Assembly (NCBI RefSeq): GCF_009914755.1
Contig: NC_060934.1
DNA from: the human T2T-CHM13v2.0 reference genome, Homo sapiens
Length of the DNA stretch: 64,000 nucleotides
Strand: one strand, 5' to 3'
Positions 3,218 to 45,729 of this stretch are shown here, in pieces. A model generated the notes under the pieces. That model was not told the origin of the DNA and did not search any database. It worked only from the letters and a program-made list of their open reading frames with translations. A program made the translations under genes and the position numbers. Positions within the stretch are counted from its first letter, which is position 1, and every line of letters starts with the position of its first letter.

Positions 3218-4137
<920 letters not shown>

Positions 4138-5037
4138 TGAAACTGCCTCTTTCACACTTCCCGGGGTGCTTTCTTGCTCTCGTATCCTGGAATTTGGCAC
4201 ATTAGTGGTTTTCCACCTTTGGTCTGCATTATTGTAGACTTGGACCACATGTCCTTTCTGTTCTTTAGACTCCAGAGTCTTCATCCTCTCAGTCTGTCCA
4301 ACTACCTCCTACTTCCGAGCACCATGCTAGGTGCCAGAATACAAAAAAACAAAAAAAGCAAAACAAAACAAAAAAACAGACCAGGGTTGGTTCCTTGGGG
4401 AGACTGACATGTAACCAGATCATTAGAATAAGGAAAGATACTCACTGTGTGTGTCCTGTAACCAGATCATGAGAATATGGAAAGATATTGTGGCTTGAGC
4501 GTTTCAAAAGTCCAAGGCAGAAAGGAGAAGGGGAAAAGTTTATTCTTTCTTTGAATCAGTGATCAGTGTCACCTGTTCATGCTGGCCTTGTGCTAGGCAC
4601 TTGGGGAGTCCAGCAAGACTTGACCTGCCCTCGAACACACTCTCACAGTTAAGGGTCATCTGGGCCCTAGGGAAGCCCTGGCCTAGAGGTTTCAAGGAAA
4701 TGATGGCATTTGAGCTGCATCTTGAAGGAGTAGCAGATTTTATCAAGCACTCCCAGGAAGTGAGGGCAAAACAGGCATGCTTGGCAGAGGAAACCACCTG
4801 TAGAGAGGCATGGCTTGATGTGCCTGGGGGGCAGTGAGAAGGTCGGGTTCCCTGGGGCAGAGGGCTCCCAGGCTGGTCTGGATAGAGCATAAGGGAGCTG
4901 GCAGAACACAGAAAACATGGGGGCCAAGCACAGGGGTGAGAATCAAGCTGGGGGGAAGGCCTGGGCCTCAGCTTGGGTGGGAGATGGGCTCAGGCCTGGA
5001 GCCAGAGGCCAGGCCCTGACAGCCTCTCTGGGGACAG

Positions 5038-5136
5038 TTCCGTCGGACAGCACTGCACCGAGCTTCCCTGGAAGGCCACATGGAAATCCTGGAGAAGCTT
5101 CTAGATAATGGGGCCACTGTGGACTTCCAGGATCGG
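5038..5136 (+). CDS. ANKRD2: ANKRD2 exon 5, ankyrin repeat (FRRTALHRAS...QDR)
   Basis: acag| ... |gtgagt; 99 nt = 33 aa with a TALH ankyrin motif. Confidence 0.97.
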
Positions 5137-5498
5137 GTGAGTGAGAGGGCAGGTATTCAATGGGAGACAGGAGGTGGGTCCAGCACTGACAGACACCCTC
5201 TCCCTGCCACCTGTGCCAACCTGAAGCATAAACAGGTTGCTCAGGTGCCAGACTCCACCTCAGTGGCTTATGTGACCTTGAGTAAGCCCCTTCTCCTCCC
5301 TAAGCATCCTCTGTGAGTCTGGCTTGGACCAGATGGGCCCTGAGTGTTCTTCTGTTCCACTTGGTCCATTGCCCATGCCCAGGCCTGCTCCCTGTACCTT
5401 TCCCCTAGATATCCCTCTGCCTTCCTGGCTGGGGTACATTACCCCCGAATACTTTCTTCCCTGCAGCTCTGTAGTTAGACCCCCTCATTTCTTTCTAG

Positions 5499-7470: not shown

Positions 7471-7666
7471 GGGGTTTTCACCCTCAGCATTATTGACATT
7501 TAGGGCCGGGTGATTGTTTGTTGTAGGGGACCATCCTATGCCTTGTAGGATATTTAAGCAACATTCTTGGCCTCTGCCCACTAGATGCCAGTAGTACCCA
7601 TCCCCTAGTGTGACAACCAAAAGTATCTTCACACAATGCCAGTTGCCCCCATTTGAGAAGCACTGG
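7471..7666 (-). mobile_element. MER20 (hAT-Charlie DNA transposon) in ANKRD2 intron 8
   Basis: Matches recalled MER20 blocks (cccactagatgccagtag; tgtgacaaccaaaa; ttgagaa.cactg terminus). Confidence 0.8.
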
Positions 7667-8044: not shown

Positions 8045-8050
8045 AATAAA
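8045..8050 (+). terminator. ANKRD2: ANKRD2 polyadenylation signal AATAAA
   Basis: Canonical hexamer 137 nt after the stop, followed by U/GU-rich sequence. Confidence 0.85.
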
Positions 8051-8794
8051 AAAGCTGTTTTTGCTAATTGCGATGTTCATTTCCACTTGTGTCTGAAATC
8101 TTTGGGAATGAAGGAAGACTGGGGGCAAATGCTGGTTTGGGGAGGAGGGAAACTGGGAGCCGGTTGGCCCTCTGAGCCAGCCCTGCAGCTTCTTTACTGT
8201 GGTCTCTTTTCCTTTCCTCCCTGCCACTCAACTTTTCCTGCCCCTTCTCACATCTCCAGGGCCAGGCTTGGCCCCTGCATGGATTGACTTGGTAATACAC
8301 TCATCCTGGCCCCCTTCCTGGTGCCTGCTGTCCTGTGGGGCTGTGAATGGCTAGCACAGGCTTGTCACGTGGCTGCCTTGGCAGGAGGAGCCTGGTAAGG
8401 GAGCGGGGCAGGGGATGGACAGCCTGTCACAGGCAGCTTCTTGCCCAGCCTTGCCACACCTCCCACAGGGCAGGACCTGCTCAGCCAATCAGCTCCACCA
8501 ACCTCAGAACTGCCCGTGGAAACCTGGCTGGGCTTCTGGCTTCAGAGCTGGGAATTGTGGGAGGAGGGCCCAGATCCCACTGGAGATACCGAAGGAGATA
8601 CTCTTTAGTATTGGGATCCCAGAAACCAGTCCTATATCTGGCCAGAGGGACACTGGGTTGTGGCATCTCTCTAGCTGCTACCCAGAAGGAACAGGGCCCC
8701 CTGGGGCCTATAGGCCTTGCCCCTGACCCTGGGAACACCCAGCTCAGGCCTGCCCCAGTGGCCACAAGTCAGGGAGGCCGCAAATTTTTAACTA

Positions 8795-15091: not shown

Positions 15092-15097
15092 AATAAA
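15092..15097 (+). terminator. C10orf62: C10orf62 polyadenylation signal AATAAA
   Basis: Canonical hexamer 344 nt after the stop, followed by a GU-rich tract (tttgtgtg). Confidence 0.75.
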
Positions 15098-15589
15098 GCT
15101 TTGTGTGCCTTCACTCTGAGTCCAGGGGCTCTGTGGGCAGCCTAAGGTCTGGCAGGGATGGAGGGAGGGGGCTCCCTCTCCAGCAGTCCTCTGGAGTGGA
15201 GTGGAGAAAAGGCCCCCGACCTGGGGCCTTTTCACTGGGCCTCATTTAAAGCTCCATAAAACAGCTACCCTGGTCTCAGGTTCTGGAAAAGGGGTACCTC
15301 TAGACGTCTCAACACCCCCAATCTGATGTTGCCAGGGAAGAGGGGAGCAGCCAGGTATTGGGCTTGGAGGAGAAACAGGCTTTCAGAGGAGAGTAACTAA
15401 GCCAGGTGGGAATGAGGGCCCCTGTTGTCTTGGTGCTATCTTTGCTCTCAAGTCATGTGGCATCCTACAAGGCAGTTCTCTCACCAGCCCCACCTGCTTC
15501 CTGGGGCCCCTTGGGATCCATGTTAGTACCTCCCCACCACCTAAGTCTACAGCTACTGAGTGAGCACAACACTTTCTTCTTGTTTGTTT

Positions 15590-15760
15590 AACTTAATTTA
15601 ATTTAATTTAATTTAATTTAATTTTAAGTTCTGAGTTACATGGGCAGGATGTTCAGGTTTGTTACATAGGTAAACATGTGCCATGGTGGTTTGCTGCACC
15701 TATCAACACGTCACCTAAGGTATTTATTTAGCCCTGCGTGCATTAGCTATTTAACCTGAT
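15590..15760 (-). mobile_element. L1PA 3' end with a (TTAAT)n tail
   Basis: caggtttgttacataggtaaacatgtgccatggtggtttgctgcacctatcaac is the antisense L1PA 3' UTR. Confidence 0.85.
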
Positions 15761-15822
15761 CATCTTGGGTTCTTTTTTTTCTTTTCCCTTTTTTTCTTGT
15801 TTTTTATGTATGTATATTTTGA

Positions 15823-16149
<327 letters not shown>

Positions 16150-16367
16150 TAGCTAAGGCCAAAGGCACACACCACCATGCCTGGCAAATTTTTTTTGTAT
16201 TTTTAGTAGAGATGGGGTTTTGCCATGTTGCCCAGGCTGGATTACAGTGGTGATATCATAGTTCACTGCAGCCTCAGACTCAAACTGGCAAAATTCAAAT
16301 AAAGTCCTTAGTTAATGACATTGTACCAGTGTTAATTCTTTGGTTCTGGTCATCATATTATAGCTAG

Positions 16368-16722
<355 letters not shown>

Positions 16723-16929
16723 AGAAAATCCCTGTACTATTTTTGAAACTTTTCTGTAAATCTAAAAGTAATTCAATATTTCAAGTTAAAAAAAAAGTTT
16801 TCAGACAATTTGATTATGAGTGTGTGTCAAAGTTTGATTATCGTTGTAATGCAAGCAAAATGACCTGTAAGCAGCTAACTCAAATATATACTCTTGGTAA
16901 GAATATTTTTATTAAAAAAAGAATGGTCA

Positions 16930-17779
<850 letters not shown>

Positions 17780-18079
17780 TTATGTCATGCAAAAAACTTT
17801 GGCCGCAGACCAGGGCAGAAAAAAATAAAGAACTTCTTTTTCTTTTGCACAACAAATTGTCAACACACACCTCAACACCTATGCTAGGCACCACACAGGA
17901 GGCCAGAATGCATCCAGGCAAAGTAAGGCAAGCACTGGGCAAGGAAAACAGAATGCTGGGTAGCCGACTTGAGCTTGTTGGCCCGCATTTGGAAGGTGTT
18001 CCAGGCAGAAGGGAACAACACAAGCAAGGGTGCAGAGGGAGGGAAGTGCAGTGTCTGGGGAACCATGGCAGTCAACTTG

Positions 18080-19068
<989 letters not shown>

Positions 19069-19593
19069 TGAAGAGTTCTAGGGACCTTTGTAGATGGGTG
19101 CTGTCCATGGGGAAATATTATACAAGGAACAGGTAACGGAAATGCAGAGCAGGGAGGCCCAGTGGAGAGATCCCAGGAAGACTTCTCAGAGGAGGTGGCA
19201 ATGATGATGGACTAAGAACGCATAATAATGTCTGGGGACACTCCTTATGTGATTCTTTTTAGCCACAGTAAGTCACCATGTTGCTTATGTGTCCCCAGCC
19301 CCAAACGCCCACTCCCCTCACTGCCACCCCAGCTCCCAGAGCAGCAAGTGTAATCATGGGGGCAGGGGAGAGTATCTTCCTTTGTCTTACAGCTGGAGGG
19401 GGCCTTGTACACCCACTCCTAATATCACAGTAGGTGTACAATGAGAGGTCATTGAGAGCAGCCTCCCCTTCAACACCAGCCACCCTCCTGATTTAAGGTT
19501 TGAGCACTTTCTCCTGACTCCATAAGAATGACAGCTAACACTTATTGAGCACCAGGTTCTATTCGAAGTACTTTATAAATAGTATCTCATTTA

Positions 19594-19929
<336 letters not shown>

Positions 19930-21307
19930 CTAATATCATCACTATTTTTTAATTGAGTTAGCCTGGGCTTCTCTGACTTCAGGGCCTGTGCATCTGACCC
20001 CTCTTCTGTGAGCCCTCTGCTTTTCTGCTTTTTCCCCAGTCCCTGCTTCATTGGAGATCCTGGCCTTTTCCTCTCCTCTGGCCCCCTCTCTACACTAACA
20101 GGGACACATCAGGCTCACACCTGGACATCTAACCAGGGTGAAGGAGGGGCTCTTTGGGGTACCCACTCACAGATTTCTGGGACATTTTCTTATCCTTTAA
20201 AACAGTCCTATAAGCTAGGATTGAAATGATTTCACTGTCATCCCATAGAAAAGGAAACAGACTCAAAGATGTGATGTGACTTGTTCAATATCCAGAGGTG
20301 ACTCTTGAGTCTAGTGCTGCCCTGACTACGCCACACTCCCTCTTCTCCAGCCAGGCACTTCTTCCTTCTTGGGAGTCAGGCATGAGTCAGTTGCCCCCTT
20401 CAATGAGACAGAAGAGAGGGCTGTGTCATAGAAGCTTTGAGCACAGTGTCTGCTTCTGACTCCCAGAGTGCAAGCCTCAGCTGTCCTGCTGTTTAGACCA
20501 GCTCCACCTGTAGGGCCCCTGGAACTGACCAGCAGGATGAGAGGTGAAGGAAGAGGGTGATGGTGGCTGAATCAGTGGCCGCAGCAAGAACCTGCCCCAG
20601 CCCAGGACGGCAGGCAGGGTTGGGGAGGAAGATGACTTTGGTATTGGAACAGAGAGAGTGGCAAGAGTTTGATCTTTGACTCTTTAGTCAGAGGGTGCTG
20701 GTCCAATCGTAGCTAGATTGGAGTCCTCACCCAGGGCTGGCAGCTTTTACGGAGAGCACTGCAGCCCCATGTAGCAAGACACAGGGAGGCCCTTCCTTGG
20801 GCTGCTAGCCTGACACACAGGAATCAATCCCCCAGAAGCAATCCCACAGGAGCGAGAAGCTGTGTGCCTCCAGACGTTCCCTGCAATGTTACCAATGCAA
20901 AATAACTACCAAAAAAAAAAAAAAAAAGCAGCTAAATATCCAATGAGAGATATCCTGATATCCTGGCAACTCACTCTGGAATCTGACGGTGTAGTGAACA
21001 GCATGGAAAAAGTTGGTGGAATGAAGTGGAGTCTACATCACACAGTGTCCCCTGAAGGATGACTCACAGGAACAATTTCTCTTGGTCCCAGTGCCAGGAA
21101 ACTCTGTGTTTCTCCGGGGCAGTTGCTTTGCTTTTATCTTTTGGGTTCTACATGTCTGTTAGCTGACCATGTTTCCCTTTTAGCTCTGGCTATCAGGAAA
21201 CTCCACATCGAATTTCTGGCTCATTTCTCACAACTATATGGCAGGAACTTTGTATACCAATACTGCTTGTGGCCTTATTTTCATTTCCTTCTCCCAAATA
21301 GCCTCCA

Positions 21308-22815
21308 ATTTTTTTTTTTTTTTTGAGACAGGGTCTTGCTCTGTCACCCAGGCTGGAGTGCAGTGGCACAATCATAGTTCACTGCAGCTTCAAATGCACC
21401 TGGTTTATTTATTTTTTATTTTTTTGTAAAGTCAGGGTCTCACTTTGTTACCCAAGGTGGTCTCGAACTTCTGGCCTCAAGTGATCCCCCCATCTTAGCC
21501 TCCTGAAGTGCTGGGATTACAGGCCCAAATATCCTTCTATTAATTAAGAATCCTGTTGTATTGTACTCTGTGTTTGTAAACTACTTCCATTTTTTTTTTC
21601 TTTAATGGAGTGGGATAGAGAGGAGAAAGAAGAAGAAAGAGAAAGTTAAGCGGGCTGGGCACTGTGGCTCACCTGTAACTGGTACAGGTATACTGGTTAG
21701 ACATATCCCAAGTAAGTGATTGATAAAAACAGGAAAACGCAAAATAAAGCAATGAGATTCACTTTTCACCCAGAAAGTTGGCAAAAATTTGTTCTGACAA
21801 TACCATGATTTGGCATGTATGACATTCTATGCTGCTCCTGAGGTCTACACTGATTGATTAGAAATGTGGCGCACAGTCAGGCATGGGGGCTCATGACTGT
21901 AATCCCAGCACTTCTGGAGGCTAAGGTGGGAGGATCACCTGGGCCCAGGAATTCGAGCCAGCCTGGGCAAAATAGTGAAACTCCATCTCTACAAAAAAAA
22001 CTACACAAATTAGTTGGGCATGGTAGCTCATGCCTGTAATCCTAGCTGGCTAAGACAGGAGGATCACTTGAACCCGGGGGGCTAAGGCTGCCGTGAGCCG
22101 TGATTGTGACACTGCACTCCAGCCTGGGTGACAGAGTGAGACCCTCAAAGAAAAAGTAAATACATAAAAAATGTGTCACAGATGAAGGTGCACATAGCTA
22201 TGACTCAGCAATTAACACACCAAAGTATCTGAACTCTAGAGGAACTCTTAGACATATGCACAGAAGACTTTACAGAAAATGTTTGTTTCAGCATTGTTTG
22301 CAATAGCAAATAGAAGAAAACATTCTTTTCTTCTTTTTTCTTTTTTGGTAGAGACAGGTAGGCCATTTTTTGGTAGAGACAGGCAGCCATGCTGCCCTGC
22401 CTGGTTTTGAACTCCTGGGCTCAAGCGATCCACCCACCTTGGCCTCCTAAAGTGCTGAAATTATAGGTGTGAGCCACCAGGCCCAGCCAAAAGAAGGAAA
22501 CATTCTAAATGCTCTCAACAAGAGAATGACAAATAAATTGTGTTCTAACCTTACAACAGAATACTATACAGCAATTAAAATGAATGAATCAGGGCTACGT
22601 GTGCTTTTATGAACAAAGCTCAAAAAATAGTATTAAACAAACAGCAAACTGCAGAAGGCTATTTAAGCTTAATTCCATTTCTACAAGGCTTAAAATTGTA
22701 ATAACCTTATTACATAAGGATCACTTGAGCCCAGAAGGTCGAAACTGCAGCAAGCTATGGTTGAGCCACTGCATCCCAGCCTGGGCAACAGAGTGAGACC
22801 CTGTGTCTAAAAAAG
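21308..22815. mobile_element. Alu pieces interleaved with old L1M fragments
   Basis: Alu consensus at about 21308-21525, 21875-22150, 22330-22490 and 22715-22815; L1-like AT-rich sequence between. Confidence 0.65.
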
Positions 22816-22938
22816 AAAAATGATGTGAACAGTCATTGCAGCTGTGTGGGAACCTTCTGTCTGCAAAGATGGGAAGGAAATGTGTGAAAGATTATGGTGT
22901 CGTAAGGTAGGAACACCAATGTCCTAGTTGTTCGGTAG

Positions 22939-23483
<545 letters not shown>

Positions 23484-23751
23484 TAGGGTGGTGCTTCACA
23501 TGAACGGCAGCTATAGGAAACGGGTGGACTGCCACCATGGATCAGCTGCACGACATTGGGAGGCTTACCTGACCACTCTGTGTTACTGCTTTCTCCCCTC
23601 TAAAATTGGAGGAATGATGTCATCTGTCTCATAGGGTTGCAGTGAGCATTAAATGAGATCAGGAACATAAAGGCCTTAGAACTGTGCGTGGCATATGGAA
23701 AGCACTCCATAAATATGACCCACTGTGATTGCTTACACTCGGGGCACGTAG

Positions 23752-24066
<315 letters not shown>

Positions 24067-24096
24067 TAGCACTTTTGCTCCTGAGGGCAGCTCTGA

Positions 24097-24441
<345 letters not shown>

Positions 24442-25966
24442 TGAGGGCTGGGGCTGGGTCTGCAGATGGTAGTTTGCCAGCCTGCCCACTCTGAAAACTC
24501 AGAAACCTGGCCACGCCGCTTACCTGTCTGAATTCGGGATGCTGTGAGTAACCTTGTTGGCTGAAGGAGGATGGCCGTGTACAATCCCTGGCCTGTAGTA
24601 GGGATGCCTGCAGTTTGTTCTGAGTCCTGAGCTCCATGATTAGATGACAAACTTAGCTGCTCTAATCCCACCTTGTACATCATTCTCTGAGGGCAGAGGC
24701 CCTGGGGCCCTCCTCTGTAGTTCAGGAGTCCATTTTCCTCTCCCCTGTCCCAGACCAGAATGAATTGTCAGATCTACAGAGTTGAGCCAGGGATCTTCAG
24801 TTGCCTGATCAGATTCTGTTCCAATCCAGGATCCCTAGGAATGTCACTTAGATCAACTGCTCTTGTCTGTTTGGGGTCAGGGTCCTTGGGTTTGGATTAG
24901 ATTTGAGCCCTGGAGGGAAGGGAGAAGAAGGGAAGCTGTTCCCTTCAGCTGAAGCCCCAGTGAGTAGAGATTTGAGTGACTTTTCCAGCACTGCAGGGGA
25001 GAATGCTTGTTCCTATTCCATCTGGTCCCTCCAGACTTTGGCTGGTTGTCTAGGCCTTTGTACATCTCCCCTGCCATGTCATGGCCTCTACGGTGAAGGG
25101 GAAGAAGAAGGGATCCATTTCTCCCTCATTCCTGGAAGTGGAGTAGATTAAAAATAAAAAAAAAAGCACAGGCTCTGGAGGCTGGGGGGAATCTCAGCTC
25201 TGCAGTTTATTCACTGAGTAATGCTGGGCAAAGCACTCACCTCTCTGGGCCTGAGTTTCTACTCTGTGTACAGAGGGATCATGAGGATTAGAGAGCATCA
25301 GGGCCATGCTGCTGTAGCGCGCCTGGGACACATAGTAGGTATTCCACAAACAACAGCTCTATTAGCTCATTCTGAATTGCCTACTCTCTCTACGGTTTTG
25401 AGGCCACTGTGCCTAGGGTTCCACTCCTATCTAGCCTTAGAAGCATACTTACAGGCTTGCAGAAGTGGCGGGGGTTTCTGAGATCACAGCCAAACCCATT
25501 TTCATTGCCCCGATGGGCACAAAGAGGACTAGAGAGGGTCTCATTCAGGTTTATGCAGTCAATGGGAAGACATGCCTGGTGACCTGACTCTGTCCAGAGT
25601 GCTTTCCATGCCCACTGCTGTCTCTGGTTGCATCCACTGGGGGGAATAAAATTTCAAAAGAGCAAAGGCTTCCCATCCGTCCTACCCTCTTACAGGACTG
25701 ATGAGTCAGGGGGCTATTGGAGGAAGCTGGAGGTGTCAACTGTCAGATGGGATTTTATTCCGGGAGGGGTTCAGGGAAGGAACCGTCCTTGAGTTCACTT
25801 TCAGGCTCTGCTCCCTGCCCCTCACAGATCAGCCCTGAGCAGTGCTTGACCTGCGGGATTCTATTTTGAATATGCAGGCAGCTCTTCTCTCTGGAAATGT
25901 ATACTCTGGACTCACAGAGCATGCCTTTGATGTAGCCAGCCAAGTGACATAGAAATCTGTATCTAA

Positions 25967-26341
<375 letters not shown>

Positions 26342-26799
26342 TGACTCCCAGAAAATCCTGACTTCGGACAAAGTCGAGCACCACTGATTGTCAAACTTAA
26401 GTGTGCATTAAAATTTCCTTGGGGGCGAATTAAAGTTCCAACTTTTGGGCCCAAGAAGATGCATTGAAACAAACATCCTGTGTGATTGTGACAGAGTAAC
26501 CCTAGGACCACACTTAGAGATGCCTGGAGAGAAAGAGTGTAAACCAGGGGCCTCTAAATCCGTGCTATCGGGGGCCAGGTCCTGAAAAAATAGGAATGAC
26601 TGGGGCTGGCAAAGGAGTTAGAAGGCAGGAGAGTGTTGTCTTCAAATAATCGGTTCTGTGGTCAGACTGTATACCCCAATTCTTTGTTGGGCAAGCAAAG
26701 GAGAACTTCAGAGAGAACGCCCATCAAGTTCAGGGTCATTCTGAAGTCTGAGGCAACAGAAAAATATGTGCCCCTGTATTCAAGTTTTAATGTACATTT

Positions 26800-28060
<1,261 letters not shown>

Positions 28061-28064
28061 AAAC

Positions 28065-31190
<3,126 letters not shown>

Positions 31191-32234
31191 TCTGGTGCAG
31201 AGTGGCTCACGCCTGTAATCTTAGCATTTTTGGAGATAGAGACGGCAGTATTGCTTGAGGCCAGGAGTTTGAGACCCACCTGGGCAACATGGCCAGACCC
31301 CATCTCTTAAAAAAAAAAAAAAAAAAAAGACACCTCTGCACTAGGATCTGTACTAGGCATCTATGGACATCCTGCTGCCTGGAGGGTAGAAGAGCCCCCT
31401 GGCTGCTCCCTACACACTGCCTCCACTGCATTGCCTGTGTGTCTGGCAGCAGGTGGGGTGGGCTCTGGTGGCCTTTTGAAGATGAGCAGTGGTGCAAGTC
31501 CTGACTTCCCTCCCCCTGGCCTGCTCTGACACCACCCAGCTGGGAGCGGGGGTGGCAGTTCAGACTCCTTCACTCAGTCTTTGCTGGCCTGGCTGGTTTT
31601 CGGCTGGAGTAGAGCAGTTACTGTCTGAAAGCTTTCCATCTTGCTAGGCAACCCCTTTTCTGGTCCTCTGGCTAGAGAGAACTGGCTTCTGTTAGTGCGT
31701 GTATTGTCTGTACCCATTGGCACTGCGTGCTTGCTGACTTCTTCAGCTCCAAGTCTGGGCCAGGGTACGTAGCACTGTGTTACTTCTTGGGTCTCTAGGT
31801 CCCTTGTTGGTCTTCCTTCTCTCTGCCTTCCAGAGTCTTCTTATGTCTTTTATATAATGTCCAGATATATATATAATTTTTTATATAATGTCCAGATAAT
31901 ATTTTTATGTAACGTCCAGAGCTTTTAGTTGTACTTATTGGGAAGAATTGGGACAAGTACATCTACTCCATCTTCCTGAAAGTAAATGCTCTAAGTATTT
32001 TTCTAAATGGTGATTTTTTTCCCCCTAAGAACATTAAAGTGGGTGAAAAAATATTGAAAATTGAGAAGTAGGTATGTTAAAACTCACAGCACTATTTTAG
32101 GCTTAAATATTTCATATACCAAAAACATGATTTATTATAATTTTATTTTCCTGGCTTTAATGGAAGCAAACTCATCAAAACATATTTTTCCAAGTCTACT
32201 TCTAGAGAAAGAATAACCGCTAAAAAGACACCAG

Positions 32235-33125
<891 letters not shown>

Positions 33126-33184
33126 AGCTAGGCACTCCACAATATTTTGTTTGGGTAAAGTGATGGGTGGGCTCTAAAGCTCCC

Positions 33185-33505
33185 TCACAGCTGTATCCTT
33201 ACCTCAAAGGGGCAGATTAACTTAGATTTACAGAAACGACAGCTGAGGAGGTAAATCTGAGTCCCTCTGGAGGTGAAGGTGCTTCTGAGATGGGACCTTC
33301 TATAAATAGGTTATAAGAACTTGCAGAAACGAGGGCCCCGTTGGGCACAGGCCGTCCTGCACATACTGAACATTCCACTGGGGTGGGGCCTCTGCTCTCC
33401 CACTCCCAGTGCACCTCTGAAAACGAAGGTCCCAGAACCCGCATGCCACCGGGACAGGAAACGGAGCGGCTTCCAGGGCTCATGGGAACTGGTCTAATAT
33501 TAGCA
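33185..33505. promoter_or_regulatory. Candidate muscle enhancer (2 MEF2, 2 CAGCTG E-boxes, 1 MCAT)
   Basis: CTATAAATAG 33300, CTAATATTAG 33494, CAGCTG 33188 and 33240, CATTCC 33371, in sequence with no repeat I could recognise. Confidence 0.5.
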
Positions 33506-34306
33506 GTGTTTTTCTCATCTGGCCCTTGGGACGTCTCTATGGGGTAGGTGTTGTTATCACTCATTTCACAGATGAAGCAGCTTGGGCTGCCCCTGGGGAA
33601 GAGTGGATGCCTAGCTGTCATCCCAGATCTCTGCGTGTCATCCCGCCCTACCCCATCCTGCCTCACCCTTCATTCTGTGTCCTCTCCTGTGCCAGCTCTG
33701 GGCACATACCCAGGAATGCCTGGAACACCTTTCTGCTGCCTAGGCTGTAGGCTCAGACACCCCGAGAACAGCTTGATGTCACTCTATTGCCCATCCCTGG
33801 TCAAACACAATGTCCTTCCTCCACCTTCCCACCAGCCTGCCTCCTGCCCCTGGCTATATTTAGGACTTTCTACAGTCTTTGCCACCAACCCCTTCTTAGG
33901 GTTTGAAGAGGGGCCACATCAGATATCTTTGGAAACCCATGGCAGGAGTGAGCTTTTCTCTGGGCACCTCTTATTTCCATCCTGTATCCTGGGTCTTTCC
34001 CACCTACTCAGGCTTTGGGTAAAAAGGCCAGGCTATTAGAACATCATGGGGGTGGCGAGGCCTGCAGGAGGGTGGCTTACCACCCATTCCAAGAAAAAAA
34101 ATCCATGCTTGATAAAGCCTCCGGGACTCTAGTGGTAAAGTTATTAGTCAATCTTTCATCAGTGGTTCCTGGCCTTTTTATCCCAAACAACCTTTTATTT
34201 TTATCCTCCTAAGGTTTTAGCTTCTCTCCAAATAAAACTTTCTTAAGGACTACTTTTGTAGTTTTTAGGTAGTGAAAGATTCATCTAATATTTCTGATCA
34301 GCATGA

Positions 34307-35035
<729 letters not shown>

Positions 35036-35715
35036 ATTATAACAATAGCTTTAGGTCCCCCATTATCAGGGAAAAGCCTTTAGAGATCATGTTGTCCAGC
35101 CCCTTCCTTTTTTAGACAGGAGAACTTACTCAGAGATAATAAGTAAATGACATACAGTTTATACAACAAAACTTCCTTGGGAAATGATGCTTTGCTTTTC
35201 CTGGGAGACCATTTAGTGTTAGGGTCAGGAGGAGCTATGGGGAGGTGAGGGCAGCCAGATGCAAGGGGAGTAGAGGTCTGGGCTGTGCCTGAGACTCTCA
35301 CAGATCCTTCCCCTTCCTGACTTCCCAGGTCTGGTGTGACCTGCGTCAGGTTTCAGGGAGCTGGGCTGCAGACTGCTGATGCTCTAGTGCCTAGACCTGC
35401 AGCCTTGCTGTCTTCTCCCACCCCAGCTTGAGGACCAAATACCACTCTCCTCTCTGTTGGAGTGGATTTTTCTCCTAAAACCAAAGGAGGCACTCTTCTT
35501 CCCCAATCTGAAGTTTTTGTATTTTGCTATTACAGACCTGCTCTCTGGTCTCTAAATCTGGATTCCCAATGTACCCTGGGTGCCATAGAGTTGGCAGTTA
35601 CTTTCCTGGGGGAAGAGGGTAGGACTTCAATGTTCTGAAAGTGACAGATCTCCGAGTTCCAGATATGGGTGTTCAGCAAATTTCTCAGTCTCTTCTAACA
35701 GGCCCTGCTTTGCAG

Positions 35716-35865
35716 GTGACCCGGCGCTTTGGGATCCCAGGGCTGAAGAAAATCATGGACTGGTTTGGCTACTATGGAGGCCCCTGCCGCGCCCCCTTGC
35801 AGGAGCTGAGCCCCGCTGAGGAGGAGGCACTGCGCATGGATTTCACCAGCAACGGCTGGCTCTGA
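35716..35865 (+). CDS. HOGA1: HOGA1 exon 7 coding part ([11 protein letters not shown]...SNGWL*)
   Basis: ttgcag| acceptor, TGA at 35863-35865; exon sum 211+129+128+135+97+134+150 = 984 nt = 327 aa + stop. Confidence 0.97.
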
Positions 35866-36219
35866 GGGCAGGCAGGGTCCATGGCTGGCCTGAGCCCATC
35901 TCAGCCTCCTGCCTTGCACTTGCAGCCTGAAGCGGAGAGCACAGGGGGATGAGGGTGGCAGGCAGCGGGGAGCCGATAGAGGCTCCTTTGCCTGCTGTGG
36001 TCCTCCAGGCAGCCTTTCACAGGCACGCCCATGCATATCTCCTATTCTAACGGCCCCTGACCTCTCCCTTTTGGATCCTAAACTGTGTCTCTGGTCTGAA
36101 GACTGGGAAGGAGCAATTTCTCAATTTATCTTTCTACTGTGGATGCTTTCCTACGCCCTGAGGCACATGAAGTCAGAAAGGAAGGGCAGAGGGGCAAGTA
36201 GGCACAGTAAGGGAATTTT

Positions 36220-36506
36220 CTTTTCTTTTTTTTTTTTTTTGAGACAGAGTTTCACTCTGTCACCCAGGCTGGAGTGCAATGGCATGATCTCGCCTCCTGG
36301 GTTCAAGCGATTCTCCTGCCTCAGCCTCCCGAGTAGCTGGGATTACAGGCGCCTGCCACCACGCCCAGCTAATTTTTGTATTTTTAGCAGAGATGGGGTT
36401 TCACCGTGTTGGCCAGGCTGGTCTTGAACTCCTGACCTCAGGTGATCCAACTGCCTCGGCCTCCCAAAGTGCTGGGATTACAGCTGTGAGCCACTGCACC
36501 CGGCCG
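36220..36506 (-). mobile_element. Antisense Alu within the HOGA1 3' UTR
   Basis: Alu consensus between the stop (35865) and the poly(A) signals (about 36970-36990); flanked by gggaattt on both sides. Confidence 0.88.
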
Positions 36507-36961
36507 GGAATTTATCAAAGGGGGGACTACTTAGATTTGGGGCTTCAAACCTGAGTCTAGCACAATGCAGCTGGAGGCCAGGGCTACTCCTACAAACCCA
36601 AGTTCTGACTCCTTCCAGGGAAGTATCAGCTTAAGAAACTTGATCAGGAAAGTGACACTGGTCTTTCAAAGAGCCCTCTTTACCCTCCCATCCCTGCCCT
36701 CCACACTGCAAGCTGCATTCCAGCCACAACGCCCTTTTCTAAATCTATTTTCATTCATCTCCTATTCTGGTCTGTAGCCTTGATTCCAACCATTGAATGC
36801 ACGGAGACAGCCCAGTGGCTTGTCAGATTGGTAAATAATGACACCTGGTGGATAAATGTTACATTCTAGAAGACTATTCTGGTCAGCCTAGGTCTGAAAC
36901 ACTAAGGAGACTTGGCCTGAGATAGGGCCATCCACTTGCCTACAGGCACTCTGCTTTTATT

Positions 36962-36993
36962 ATTAAAAATAGTCACTTTGTTACTATAATAAA
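36962..36993 (+). terminator. HOGA1: Probable HOGA1 polyadenylation signals (ATTAAA 36962-36967, AATAAA 36988-36993)
   Basis: First hexamers I saw in the AT-rich stretch about 1.1 kb after the stop; the sequence does not show which is used. Confidence 0.65.
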
Positions 36994-37237
36994 ATTTAAC
37001 AGAAAAAATTAGTGTGGCTATATAAAGATGGACACTCTATTGCTATGCAGATCTTAGGTTTCCTGGCCAGATGTCAAGAACCTTTCTAAAGGCAAAAGAG
37101 CTCTGATGGTCTGCCTTCTCCCAGCTCGAAGAGTGTCCCCAGCAATACTGAGCCAACAGGCATTCACTTACTGGAGACCTGGGGAAGGGGTAAGAGGCAA
37201 AAGAGAGCAAGTGAGCTATTTAGAAACAAACACTTAG

Positions 37238-37850
<613 letters not shown>

Positions 37851-38779
37851 GGATGCTTTCTCCAAAATATTTAACCTTTTTCAGTGGTAATATTTGACTA
37901 GTGGCAGAAAAATGGAGATACATTGTAAAAAAATTACTCCTTAAAAGAAAGTGTAAGGTTAAAAAGAGAGGTAAATAGATACTTGTTTAGGGCAGAGGCT
38001 AAAGGAGAGAAAATAAAAGATCTCAATCTTCAACCCAAAACCAGGCTCTGAATGGCACTACAGCTTGGGGCTTAGTGCCTGGGGTCCTCTCACAGGCAAC
38101 TTCCAGAGGAGCAAGGCTCAGAGGAGAATCAAGTTTAGGACTTGGGGGAAAAGTTAGGGCTAGGCAGGCAGGGTAGTGCACTGGGTAAGAGCTCAGCCTC
38201 TGGGCTTAAACAGGTCTGGGTTTAAGTTCTGGGATCTGCCCCTTAGTGTCTATGGGACCTTGGAGAAACTGCTTAACTTCCCTGAGCCTCATCTGTAATA
38301 CAGGGATAATAATAGTACCTTCCTCCAACAAGGACGTGCATGTAAAAGGGTTAGCGTGGGGGTCAATGTTCCACCACTCTCCTGTTGCAGAAAAAGGGAA
38401 ACTCCGGCAGGAGTGGACCTGCCAGAGGTAACCCAGCAGGTGTGGCCATAACTAGTCTCAGGACTTAAGTACTCTGATGCTCAGGGTGAGAGAGGTCCAG
38501 TAAAGGGAGCTGGAATCAGAAAGGCTCGGTTACAAATCTCACCCAGCTGTGCTACCTACTAGTTGGGACAGCCTGAGATTGTCTGATTTAAATAAGAAAA
38601 AAAAGTTCATACGTCCTCCTCTGTAGAGGCTGAGAAAATTAGATGACTTGATAAAGTGTGCAGGGTCAGTTCCAAGGGCTAACCCGATTAACTTTTACAA
38701 ACAGCAAATGGGTTGATATTCATGAAGACGCAGGGCCAGAAAGTCAGGAAAACTAGGTATAGGCAGTTCTGGTGATTTC

Positions 38780-38785
38780 TTTATT
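38780..38785 (-). terminator. MORN4: Probable MORN4 polyadenylation signal AATAAA
   Basis: tttatt on + strand, implying a 3' UTR of about 1.7 kb. Confidence 0.65.
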
Positions 38786-39507
38786 CTTTATAAACACCTT
38801 TTTCTACAGTACAATTCAGAGAATAAATAGAGGCACACGGCTATAACTTCCACCACAATCTGCTGTTGAAGAGACATTCAATGTGAGGCTAGGGAGCTAG
38901 AGGTGGGGGACGTATTTGGGTACCAGGGTAACGGGAGGCCTACGTAATAAACTGCAGAGATCCCATCAGTAAGGTCTGATTGCGGCCTGACGGTCAAGGC
39001 TCATGATAGAAGAGCTACAGTGAGCCAAATGCTCCTTTAGTTCCCCACAGTCCTAGAGTAGGTCCAATTCTACCAAAACCCCAGGGGTTCGGGTGAGTCT
39101 GATTTATTGGTCCACTGGGAAGAAACTGTGTCAGCCCAAGCCATCCGTATGAATTCAGTTCACTCCATGGTAGTGCCTGAAGTGGCCTAAATATTCTACC
39201 CTTTTCCCTGGAGTTAGTCACAAATACAAGTAATAAGATTACTGTTTACATGAGTTTTTTTCTTGATTGTCCCAAAAAGGGATCCTGTTCCCCATCTAAG
39301 GAAGGAGAGAGGCACACATGGGGATTATCTGCTCTAAGTTGATGAAAGAAGACAGCCTGTCTTCTAAAGGGAGGAGGAAATAGCACTCTTACCGAATCCT
39401 TCACGGGGACATAGGCAGGAATGAATACCAGTCTGATCAGACCAAGTGGAAGCCTGCAGCCATGATTCCAACCAGCATGAGGAGTAACATATGGAAAAGC
39501 TCTGCCA

Positions 39508-39978
<471 letters not shown>

Positions 39979-40469
39979 AAAAGCTCTGGCCTTGACTTTC
40001 ACAGGGCTGCTGTACTGAGCCACCCCTATCTTTTCCCTATTTCTCCAGAGTGGCACAGAGCACTGGCCCTAAGCTGGGGCTAGGATCACCTGTCCCCAAA
40101 GCAGCAGAACGAAGGTTCTGTATCACTTGGCAGAAAATGAAGCAGAAGGGTCACAGCAGGCTACACTGGGTAACCTGAGGTCTTAGGAACAGAGTATCAA
40201 CCAGTGAGAAGAGGTGGCTCCTCTGTCCTCCAGCACATAAGGGTTAGGGAAAGACAGAACCACCAATGACTGCTGCAGGGTCTGCTGGCCAGCATCCTCA
40301 GCACTTTTCTGTGGTCCAGTTCTGGAATGGCAGGTGACAGGGCACATACAAGGCCTCTGCTCCACTGTCATTGTCAACTCATCTCAGCTCTGATTCATTT
40401 GTTCACCTCGAATCAACAACAGGGGCACTGGCTTTACCCAATACTTATCAGCTGGTGCCCACTGCGCTG

Positions 40470-40658
<189 letters not shown>

Positions 40659-40819
40659 TTAATGTCTCAAAGATGAGACATATCTTTGGCCTTGATATGT
40701 CCAGGCCAAAGAAGAGAAAAACTCCCAGCTCTACTCAGGAGTACTCTATTGATGAGTTCAATGGATAGGTGTCAGGGACGGCCACTATGGATTGCTGGAC
40801 ACCCGCAGGATTAAAACTA

Positions 40820-41020
<201 letters not shown>

Positions 41021-41407
41021 TCAGTGGAAAGTTAGCTGTCCAGATGAACGGAGTCGAGCAGCTGCTGATCTCTGTTATTTAATGATGCTAAGGAGCAAGC
41101 CGATTCTACCAGTCACATAGCTCCACCTACCCCACCTATTCCCAAGGAGCAGAGAGTATATATGACATGAAGCCCTGATCTCAAGGAAAGAAGATAGGAT
41201 GTGAATGGGAGTGGGGTGGAAAGTCACTCACTTGGTTGACATTTCAAATTTTAGGTCCACTTAAAAAATAGCTAATAAAAGAACTACTTATTCCTCATCT
41301 GTGTTCTGCAGGGAGTGAGACAAGGTCAGGATTGACCAGATATTTACCAGAGTCCCATTTTTCTGTCAGACCCTCCCTTATTTAAGGCTAAGAAAGGAAT
41401 GACCTCA

Positions 41408-41614
<207 letters not shown>

Positions 41615-41788
41615 TCACCCTACCCACAAAGAAAACAAGAGAAGCAGTGACATTAGCAGGGCAGAGGATTATTAGCCAGAGTCAGGCACTGGGAAAACCT
41701 GGCTCCTGGGGCCTTCCCATCTTATCACTACAGATTAAAGCAGGTCTACCCAAGTATGAATAAGAGAGCACTTAAAAATAACAACAGC

Positions 41789-43577
<1,789 letters not shown>

Positions 43578-43722
43578 GAAAGATATAACTCATTCCTGGA
43601 GGTTGAATTAACAATAGCATTTTCAAATTCCTTTATTTAATCCTAAAATGGAATAAAGGAATGGCAGGCACTATATGGAATTAAATCCTGGAGTTGAAAA
43701 TGAAGATCCATAAAGTTGGCTA

Positions 43723-43869
<147 letters not shown>

Positions 43870-44410
43870 TTACAGGATAAAAGGATGAAACTGTAGGAAA
43901 TAAGCAAAGGAGAACCAGTGTCATGGAATGGCGGGAGGAAAGGACTGCAAGGCAATTTTATAGATACATTCTAAAGGCCACCAGCCTGGTAAGTGTACAC
44001 TGCCTTAGGTGCATTTAACCAAAATACCCCTATCTCCAACCACCACCAGCACCATCATCTCCACCTCTGCCCAAGTGCTCTTATCCTCCTGCTTATCTTA
44101 AAAGTTTTCAGCCAGTTCCTATTTTCTATGACCTGGGATGGAAATCTACAAATATTAATCTACAAATATTTATTTGATACCTACTATGTGCTCAGTCGAT
44201 GTATAAAATACAGTATCTTCCCTTGACGAGTTTATAATCTAGTTAATAAGACTAACAATTTAAACACTGAATTATGCCAGAGATAATGTGATTAAGTGCC
44301 AACTTGGATGGCAGAGATTAACAAAGACATGAGATGGCCAGAATTTAAAACAAGCAGACAAGCAGTGGAGAAGGCAAAGAGCAATTCCAGAATCAGAAAA
44401 CATAGGGAAC

Positions 44411-45462
<1,052 letters not shown>

Positions 45463-45729
45463 CTAGTCCTTTTTTCCTGTACAGCACAGCCTCTGCTTTT
45501 AGCTCAGGCTAACTTAAAGAGACCTTTGAAAGCTGGGCATAAGAGTTTACAGCATATGAGGGAGGAAAAGAGGCGACCTCTGCGGGTTTGTGAACCAGGA
45601 TGTAATATGAAGGCAGTGTGTAAGGAAAATGAATGTGGTAGCACGAAGTGGGATGAATTGGAGCAGCAAGTCCATAGTCAGAAAAGCTTGCAAGGAAGGG
45701 AAATATGATAATGAAGCAAATTGTAAAAA

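What the first reader, a model, noticed from the sequence alone, without database searches (positions are those of the whole stretch)
33185..33505. Muscle-enhancer motif grammar hidden in HOGA1 intron 6: a candidate distal enhancer for ANKRD2
Seen within 320 bp of apparently unique sequence: two perfect MEF2 sites CTA(A/T)4TAG (CTATAAATAG 33300-33309, CTAATATTAG 33494-33503), two myogenic E-boxes (aCAGCTGt 33188, aCAGCTGa 33240), a TEAD/MCAT CATTCC (33371), and locally retained CpGs including four AAACG motifs. A perfect MEF2 10-mer is expected about once per 65 kb under uniform composition. Known: MEF2 plus MyoD/myogenin plus TEAD is the classic striated-muscle enhancer combination; ANKRD2 is a stretch-responsive muscle gene whereas HOGA1 is liver/kidney. 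Inference: the element regulates ANKRD2 (or MORN4) from inside a bystander gene.
Basis: partly seen in the sequence, partly recalled or inferred. Interest (0 to 1): 0.7.

Follow-up and report, generated by a model that had tools for sequence, protein, structure and literature searches.

The report
Triple-MEF2 muscle enhancer candidate in HOGA1
A 680-base stretch in the last intron of the kidney-stone gene HOGA1 carries three exact binding sequences for the muscle regulator MEF2 plus helper motifs, and is likely an ordinary muscle enhancer that probably serves both HOGA1 and its muscle neighbour ANKRD2, though its activity and targets are untested.

Summary
All five motifs and the four AAACG words are at the stated places. 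Three of the five exact CTA(A/T)4TAG sites in 206 kb lie in these 564 bp (chance about 3e-5 to 5e-4). CpG retention is in the top 1-2% of non-repeat, non-exon tiles. The MEF2 sites are not repeat-derived. The E-boxes and single MCAT are weak alone. A MEF2/TEAD striated-muscle enhancer is the best reading (about 0.55), but no chromatin data for the element itself could be read. HOGA1 is not a clean bystander: published tables show it rises 2- to 6-fold about 3 h after exercise in human muscle, also when ANKRD2 does not, and MEF2A/C/D are linked to both genes. Against: shallow rodent MEF2A ChIP lists give no peak here but one upstream of Ankrd2; myotube capture Hi-C lists no contact; Mef2a knockdown in C2C12 lowers Ankrd2, not Hoga1. 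Known kind of element, no paper found on it, modest interest.

The parts
33188..33863 (.). Candidate MEF2/TEAD/E-box enhancer, full extent (T2T chr10:98,489,188-98,489,863; about hg38 chr10:97,608,980-97,609,660; about hg19 chr10:99,368,740-99,369,420)
   Evidence: Top-scoring 700-bp tile for muscle motifs in 206 kb, 8.8 against 4.3 for the next (motif classes chosen after seeing the element). hg19 offset from HOGA1 variant positions in PMC9412052; hg38 offset checked against HindIII fragment ends in PMC7264154.
33188..33193 (.). E-box CAGCTG, flanks A and T
33240..33245 (.). E-box CAGCTG, flanks A and A; starts 60 bp before MEF2 site 1
33300..33309 (.). MEF2 site 1, CTATAAATAG; contains a TATA-like TATAAATA at 33301
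33370..33377 (+). TEAD/MCAT site ACATTCCA
33494..33503 (.). MEF2 site 2, CTAATATTAG (fits the consensus; recalled to be a less favoured variant)
   Evidence: affinity remark is recall
33237..33468 (.). CpG-retaining core: nine CpGs, four of them in AAACG on the plus strand
33515..33603 (.). Short fragment of an old dispersed repeat between MEF2 sites 2 and 3 (MIR-like by recall); holds none of the named motifs
   Evidence: four blastn hits at 71-83% identity in 206 kb
33712..33719 (-).
33854..33863 (.).
32728..33013 (+). Left boundary: high-copy SINE (Alu by recall) flanked by a 33-nt direct repeat; not part of the element

Best explanation
Window 33188-33863 in HOGA1 intron 6 holds three exact MEF2 sites, two TEAD sites and two CAGCTG E-boxes in non-repeat, CpG-retaining DNA, and is likely a striated-muscle enhancer that probably raises transcription of both ANKRD2 (36 kb upstream) and its host HOGA1 (25 kb upstream). 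Shown: the motifs, their rarity, the CpG retention, the non-repeat origin. Inferred: MEF2 dimers bind the three sites; TEAD (skeletal and cardiac muscle) and MyoD/myogenin-E protein dimers (skeletal only) cooperate; contraction signals that activate MEF2 (established MEF2 biology, recalled) would switch the element up; it would loop to the two plus-strand promoters upstream. Within the 0.55 I put about 0.27 on both genes, 0.14 on ANKRD2 only and 0.14 on HOGA1 only.
For: 3 of 5 exact MEF2 sites in 205,900 bp lie within 564 bp; expected triples 2.9e-5 to 4.5e-4 at the local rate. Two RCATTCCW sites among 33 in 206 kb. CpG count reached by 14 of 799 control tiles. No repeat similarity at any of the three MEF2 sites, whereas 8 of the 18 relaxed sites in the region sit in high-copy repeats. 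Ankrd2 normalised counts 134/120 against 255/241 on Mef2a knockdown in C2C12, edgeR adjusted p 5e-6 (PMC4191398 supplement row), with no YTA(W)4TAR site from window -7000 to -2000 around its tested promoter. In human muscle HOGA1 log2 change +0.96 and +1.39 at 3.5 h (adjusted p 0.003, 7e-7) and +1.77 and +2.56 at 3 h in a second cohort (PMC13001352 supplement row). The same study's ATAC-plus-RNA model links MEF2A, MEF2C and MEF2D to HOGA1 and to ANKRD2 through exercise-responsive peaks within 100 kb; 11 of 13 listed factors are shared. HOGA1 promoter listed as active in heart, score 0.283 (PMC5059478).
Against: No direct chromatin, binding, conservation or reporter datum for the element was obtained. 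No RefSeq functional element overlaps it (task annotation). In MEF2A ChIP-exo lists (2,783 C2C12 and 1,648 rat cardiomyocyte peaks) no peak is tied to Hoga1, Morn4 or Pi4k2a; the one Ankrd2 peak is at -38,612, upstream. Among 36,809 myotube capture Hi-C interactions none involves the element's HindIII fragment (window 31629-45684) or the ANKRD2 promoter fragment; the HOGA1/C10orf62 promoter fragment links instead to a UBTD1-intron fragment and to window 15096-31634 (first six places per term seen, table sorted by chromosome). The model's edges give no peak coordinates, and its factor set includes AP-1/BACH and ROR proteins whose strict motifs are absent from 33050-34380, so the linked peak may be elsewhere. 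Hoga1 does not change on Mef2a knockdown in C2C12. HOGA1 is absent from the uncut all-genes table of a muscle CAGE study (no positive control run), so its level in muscle is probably low. HOGA1 and ANKRD2 respond with different timing, which a shared enhancer alone does not explain. About 46 dispersed loci genome-wide match E-box plus two exact MEF2 sites.
Confidence: 0.55

Rival explanations
1. The cluster is a chance arrangement in neutral or non-muscle DNA, and the MEF2 input to ANKRD2 and HOGA1 comes from elsewhere, for example the exact MEF2 site at window -61293 in the UBTD1 intron.
For: A genome has about 49,000 such windows: roughly 13 non-tandem triples of similar spacing are expected genome-wide (3 non-tandem loci among 10 loci in the first 100 of 528 rows; chromosome lengths recalled), 46 dispersed E-box/MEF2/MEF2 loci and 95 MEF2/TEAD/MEF2 rows. 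The rodent MEF2A peak is upstream of Ankrd2, none here. The -61293 site lies in unique DNA with 11 CpGs in 610 bp and a TCAGGTT core nearby. No Hi-C contact.
Against: The local background is one exact site per 41-103 kb, so a triple here is expected 3e-5 to 5e-4 times. CpG retention and two full TEAD sites coincide with it. The rodent lists are shallow and cannot see a primate-specific element.
Confidence: 0.25
2. It is a real MEF2 enhancer, but works in another MEF2-using cell type (neuron, lymphocyte, endothelium, smooth muscle) or on another gene (MORN4, PI4K2A, AVPI1, C10orf62, UBTD1).
For: MEF2 also regulates smooth muscle, neurons and T cells (PMC4191398 passage). MORN4, C10orf62 and PI4K2A promoters are 19-31 kb away, nearer than ANKRD2. 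The fragment next to the element contacts the MMS19/UBTD1 promoter fragment in myotubes.
Against: TEAD and myogenic-type E-boxes fit muscle better (recalled). MORN4 and MMS19 barely move after exercise, and AVPI1 has no model edge in the stored part of the table. Morn4, Pi4k2a and the C10orf62 orthologue are flat on Mef2a knockdown.
Confidence: 0.12
3. It is an intronic, MEF2-driven alternative promoter: the TATAAATA inside MEF2 site 1 starts transcripts that run into HOGA1's long last exon and inflate HOGA1 RNA-seq counts after exercise without making enzyme.
For: TATA-like word at 33301 on the HOGA1 strand with CpGs just downstream. HOGA1 is induced in RNA-seq yet missing from the CAGE gene table.
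Against: Only middling donors (7 of 9 consensus matches) lie downstream of a start near 33330, at 34443, 34877 and 35245, and eight AATAAA words lie between the element and exon 7. No promoter row with these coordinates was seen in the stored part of the CAGE promoter table, though not every place was displayed and the table of intronic clusters was cut before chr10.
Confidence: 0.08

Closest known systems
MCK (Ckm) small intronic enhancer, MCK-SIE (Tai et al. 2011, PMC3157005; abstract and section 8 read)
   Same: Intronic; two E-boxes paired with a MEF2 site; there the MEF2 site and the E-box pair each account for about 90% of activity.
   Different: MCK-SIE has one MEF2 site, is conserved, is shown to be bound by MyoD, myogenin and MEF2, and acts on its own host gene. 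This element has three MEF2 and two TEAD sites over 680 bp, none tested, in a gene best known from kidney and liver.
[quoted passage not shown] 2016, PMC5168824; search listing and start of abstract only)
   Same: Intragenic position near a muscle gene and locally retained CpGs fit this class.
   Different: That paper does not mention ANKRD2 (0 occurrences). Methylation of this element in muscle was not seen; CpG retention reflects germline history, not muscle methylation.
ANKRD2 proximal promoter (Belgrano et al. 2011, PMC3189947; passages read)
   Same: Same candidate target gene; E-box driven (MyoD), also responsive to Nkx2.5 and p53.
   Different: It is the known, reportedly sufficient 280-bp control region at about window -3480 to -3035 and has no consensus MEF2 site. 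The intron-6 element would add a distal MEF2/TEAD input not described in the passages read.

Membership tests
MEF2/bHLH/TEAD striated-muscle enhancer (MCK-SIE type) | Consensus MEF2 site(s), (C/T)TA(A/T)4TA(G/A) | tested here: met
   Three exact CTA(A/T)4TAG at 33300, 33494, 33854; consensus as written in PMC4191398.
MEF2/bHLH/TEAD striated-muscle enhancer (MCK-SIE type) | Myogenic E-box pair next to a MEF2 site | tested here: met
   CAGCTG at 33188 and 33240, the second 60 bp before MEF2 site 1; alone they are reached by 1.35% of tiles.
MEF2/bHLH/TEAD striated-muscle enhancer (MCK-SIE type) | MCAT/TEAD site | tested here: met
   RCATTCCW at 33370 (+) and 33712 (-); 33 such sites in 206 kb.
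MEF2/bHLH/TEAD striated-muscle enhancer (MCK-SIE type) | Occupancy by MEF2, MyoD/myogenin or TEAD in muscle cells | tested here: inconclusive
   No Hoga1-, Morn4- or Pi4k2a-linked peak in shallow mouse and rat MEF2A ChIP-exo lists; no human muscle ChIP list could be read; orthology of the element is unknown.
MEF2/bHLH/TEAD striated-muscle enhancer (MCK-SIE type) | Open chromatin, H3K27ac and hypomethylation in muscle or heart | not testable with these tools
   The genome-wide tables were too large to read: myotube enhancers, heart distal enhancers, myoblast and muscle DMRs. CpG retention is only an indirect hint.
MEF2/bHLH/TEAD striated-muscle enhancer (MCK-SIE type) | Conservation of the motifs across mammals | not testable with these tools
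   The genome tool holds no relatives for this genome.
MEF2/bHLH/TEAD striated-muscle enhancer (MCK-SIE type) | Motif-dependent activity in differentiated muscle cells | not testable with these tools
   Needs reporter or CRISPRi work.
MEF2/bHLH/TEAD striated-muscle enhancer (MCK-SIE type) | Contact with a target promoter | tested here: inconclusive
   No row for the element's HindIII fragment in myotube capture Hi-C, but none for the ANKRD2 promoter fragment either.
Enhancer inside a bystander gene acting only on a neighbour | Host gene silent or unregulated in the tissue where the enhancer works | tested here: not met
   HOGA1 is exercise-induced in human muscle in two cohorts and its promoter is listed as active in heart. 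Its level is probably low and mouse Hoga1 ignores Mef2a knockdown.
Transposon-derived motif cluster | Motifs lie inside a repeat copy | tested here: not met
   Zero repeat coverage at all three MEF2 sites; one genomic match. Very old repeats with few local copies could escape these searches.
Intronic alternative promoter with overlapping TATA/MEF2 site | Capped 5' ends about 30 nt downstream and a splice route to exon 7 | tested here: inconclusive
   TATAAATA at 33301; only middling donors downstream; CAGE cluster table cut before chr10.

The most novel reading that the evidence does not exclude
A contraction-responsive MEF2/TEAD enhancer, possibly primate-specific, that switches on the hydroxyproline-degrading enzyme gene HOGA1 in human muscle within hours of exercise and also drives ANKRD2 in human heart. 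It would tie collagen-derived hydroxyproline and glyoxylate metabolism to muscle activity, and would be one element behind a human-mouse difference in cardiac ANKRD2 (ANKRD2 is discussed among human-specific chamber genes in PMC8130971 section 9).
Probability: 0.12. Interest if true: 0.6.

Novelty: new member of a known kind. Interest (0 to 1): 0.36.

Why it matters
If active, it gives a precise 680-bp CRISPRi target for two open points: where the MEF2 dependence of ANKRD2 comes from, given a promoter without a consensus MEF2 site, and why a primary-hyperoxaluria gene rises several-fold in exercised human muscle. The mechanism class is textbook, and the element may already be an unnamed peak in public chromatin catalogues that I could not consult, so the gain is local and not conceptual.

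Tried and rejected
Repeat origin: rejected for the MEF2 sites. Tandem duplication behind the 93-94 bp spacing of three AAACG words: best 31 of 60 matches against a shuffle mean maximum of 28.5 and 95th percentile 30, so not convincing; Tandem Repeats Finder shows nothing in 33185-33505. Read-through from ANKRD2 (505 bp upstream of HOGA1, same strand) as the cause of HOGA1 induction: rejected for endurance exercise, where ANKRD2 is flat (-0.20 and +0.02) while HOGA1 rises; not excluded for resistance exercise. CTCF boundaries: no exact match to my recalled consensus in the window, two one-mismatch hits at 7578 (+) and 46101 (-), too weak to use. The relaxed MEF2 site at -49874 has AP-1, ROR-like and NFAT words nearby but few CpGs and looks like old LINE sequence by recall, so I did not promote it. 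The reversed-pattern control (1 and 0 matches) is uninformative, because the reversed E-box contains a CpG. A whole-window Markov simulation timed out and was replaced by analytic expectations. Papers that led nowhere: PMC11602805 (hits were ANKRD24), PMC6660590 (passages point to atherosclerosis tables; supplements not opened), PMC11870903 (kidney enrichment in buffalo only), PMC6817842 (passages only, no Hoga1 or Ankrd2 in main text, supplements not opened). Ten full-text searches listed no paper whose title or abstract start describes a regulatory element in HOGA1 intron 6; most listed papers were not opened, and the library lacks most subscription papers.

Full report
1. Observation. The interval is in HOGA1 intron 6 (26192-35715, task annotation). 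A third exact MEF2 site, CTATATTTAG, lies at 33854 and a second full TEAD site at 33712. The element is better taken as 33188-33863, between high-copy SINEs at 32728-33013 and from about 34390.

2. Chance. The three sites are the only exact CTA(A/T)4TAG in the window and 3 of 5 in 205,900 bp covering HOGA1's start plus or minus about 100 kb; the other two are at -78220 and -61293. Expected triples within 554 bp are 1.5e-5 to 4.7e-4 per window under Markov orders 0-5 and 2.9e-5 to 4.5e-4 per 206 kb at the local rate without or with the cluster. Genome-wide, the same patterns are rare but not unique. There are 987 pairs with a 150-250 gap. Triples number 273 forward and 255 reverse; the first 100 of 528 rows fall in 10 loci, of which I judged 3 non-tandem from their first 80 bases, or about 13 per genome (chromosome lengths recalled). 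E-box/MEF2/MEF2 gives 70 rows: 21 in four satellite-like arrays, which I dropped, and 46 other loci including this one. MEF2/TEAD/MEF2 gives 95 rows, two of them from this element. The E-boxes (1.35% of tiles have two) and a single CATTCC (20%) are weak alone. CpG retention is independent support: 14 of 799 non-repeat, non-exon tiles reach nine CpGs, all near the MORN4 promoter, median 2. The AAACG run is unusual but chosen after the fact, is not a clear tandem repeat, and stays unexplained.

3. Not a repeat. 33100-33900 has one genomic match (also at E up to 10; these searches skip very common words). Against 206 kb of local DNA only 33515-33603 finds other copies, four hits at 71-83%. None of the three MEF2 sites has repeat coverage, while 8 of 18 relaxed MEF2 sites nearby lie in high-copy repeats.

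4. Coordinates. HOGA1 variant positions in Table 1 of PMC9412052 (passages) give hg19 = window + 99,335,551 to 556. The hg38 offset (window + 97,575,794; the hg19-to-hg38 step was recalled) reproduces a HindIII fragment end in PMC7264154 at window 31629 exactly and upstream ends within 36 bp.

5. Is it active? Not shown. The three tables that would answer directly were too large to read. What could be read is neutral or mildly negative. No RefSeq functional element overlaps it. In PMC4191398 (passages and supplement rows) the MEF2A ChIP-exo gene lists for C2C12 (2,783 peaks) and rat cardiomyocytes (1,648) tie no peak to Hoga1, Morn4 or Pi4k2a; the single Ankrd2 peak, from the rat set, is at -38,612, upstream. 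These lists are shallow and rodent. In PMC7264154 (passages and Supplementary Data 4) no interaction involves the element's fragment (window 31629-45684) or the ANKRD2 promoter fragment; three rows cover the locus and join the HOGA1/C10orf62 promoter fragment, window 15096-31634, a UBTD1-intron fragment and the MMS19/UBTD1 promoter fragment.

6. Which gene? For ANKRD2: Mef2a knockdown halves it in C2C12 (134/120 against 255/241) while Hoga1, Morn4, Pi4k2a and the C10orf62 orthologue stay flat, and its tested promoter (window -3480 to -3035) has no consensus MEF2 site between -7000 and -2000. Against a need for this element: 280 bp of upstream DNA are reported sufficient for muscle specificity (PMC3189947 passage), the knockdown effect may be indirect, and an exact MEF2 site in unique, CpG-retaining DNA at -61293 could match the upstream rodent peak (orthology untested). 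For HOGA1: in PMC13001352 (preprint; passages and supplement rows) it rises at 3.5 h after endurance (+0.96, adjusted p 0.003) and resistance exercise (+1.39, 7e-7), and at 3 h in the second cohort tabulated there (+1.77, +2.56). ANKRD2 is flat after endurance exercise (-0.20, +0.02) and peaks 24 h after resistance exercise (+1.76), so read-through does not explain the endurance response. MORN4 is flat. The study's ATAC-plus-RNA model lists MEF2A, MEF2C and MEF2D for both HOGA1 and ANKRD2; 11 of the 13 factors listed for each are shared (table cut when stored). It uses peaks within 100 kb and gives no coordinates, and AP-1 and ROR motifs in its factor set are absent from the element, so this supports a shared MEF2 input in the region and not this element in particular. 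The HOGA1 promoter is also on the heart-active promoter list of PMC5059478 (score 0.283). Against a strong muscle role: HOGA1 is missing from the uncut gene table of a muscle CAGE study (PMC9308330, passages and supplement search; no positive control was run).

7. Mechanism. Most likely (0.55) a MEF2/TEAD striated-muscle enhancer with an E-box pair at its left end, acting on ANKRD2 and HOGA1 together. Motifs, rarity, CpG retention and non-repeat origin are shown; binding, activity, looping and targets are inferred. Rivals: a chance cluster with the real MEF2 input upstream (0.25), a real MEF2 enhancer for another cell type or gene (0.12), an intronic promoter feeding exon 7 (0.08; one search found only middling donors and eight AATAAA words on the way).

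8. Known kinds and novelty. [quoted passage not shown] The sequence features of that class are met; occupancy, chromatin, conservation and activity are untested or inconclusive, so membership is provisional. The 'bystander host' feature was tested and not met. Ten searches listed no paper describing this element; it may still be an unnamed peak in public catalogues or in supplements that I could not see.

Noticed in passing
L005:707 (window -61293, UBTD1 intron): Exact MEF2 site CTATATATAG in unique DNA with 11 CpGs in 610 bp, a TCAGGTT core, a CACCTG and two GGTCA half-sites nearby; a rival MEF2 element for ANKRD2, possibly matching the rodent peak upstream of Ankrd2.
   Followed up: partly
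window 36451-37151 (HOGA1 3' UTR): Second-best muscle-motif tile in 206 kb: two CAGCTG, a TEAD site at 36715 and a relaxed MEF2 site at 36963; overlaps the RefSeq enhancer 36532-36751.
   Followed up: no
window 8572-37008 (HOGA1): HOGA1 mRNA rises 2- to 6-fold about 3 h after acute exercise in human muscle in two cohorts; the gene is not mentioned in the main text of the study that tabulates it.
   Followed up: partly
window 8067-8572: Only about 505 bp separate the ANKRD2 end (AATAAA at 8045) from the HOGA1 start on the same strand, so read-through could contribute to HOGA1 counts after resistance exercise.
   Followed up: partly
L010, window -6000 to -4500: Six CAGCTG E-boxes 1.5-3 kb upstream of the tested ANKRD2 promoter; third-best muscle-motif tile.
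   Followed up: no
window 32696-33046: SINE insertion flanked by a 33-nt, 97% identical direct repeat, long for a target-site duplication, inside an AT-rich stretch that resembles a DNA-transposon fossil by recall.
   Followed up: no
window 34014-34032 and 34168-34186: 19-nt inverted repeat, 89% complementary, arms 135 nt apart, in non-repeat DNA just right of the element.
   Followed up: no
L006, about 3900-5400: GC-rich tandem array in the UBTD1 intron, seen as many repeated CpG words.
   Followed up: no
HOGA1 gene body, position not given in the passage: cg13985639 is reported as an age-associated methylation marker in human pectoralis muscle (PMC12705185 passages); I could not place it relative to the element.
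   Followed up: no
G000 C1:227.73 Mb, C16:38.40-38.44 Mb, C19:30.20-30.30 Mb, C23:57.39-57.55 Mb: Satellite-like arrays that repeatedly match MEF2, CAGCTG and CATTCC patterns.
   Followed up: no
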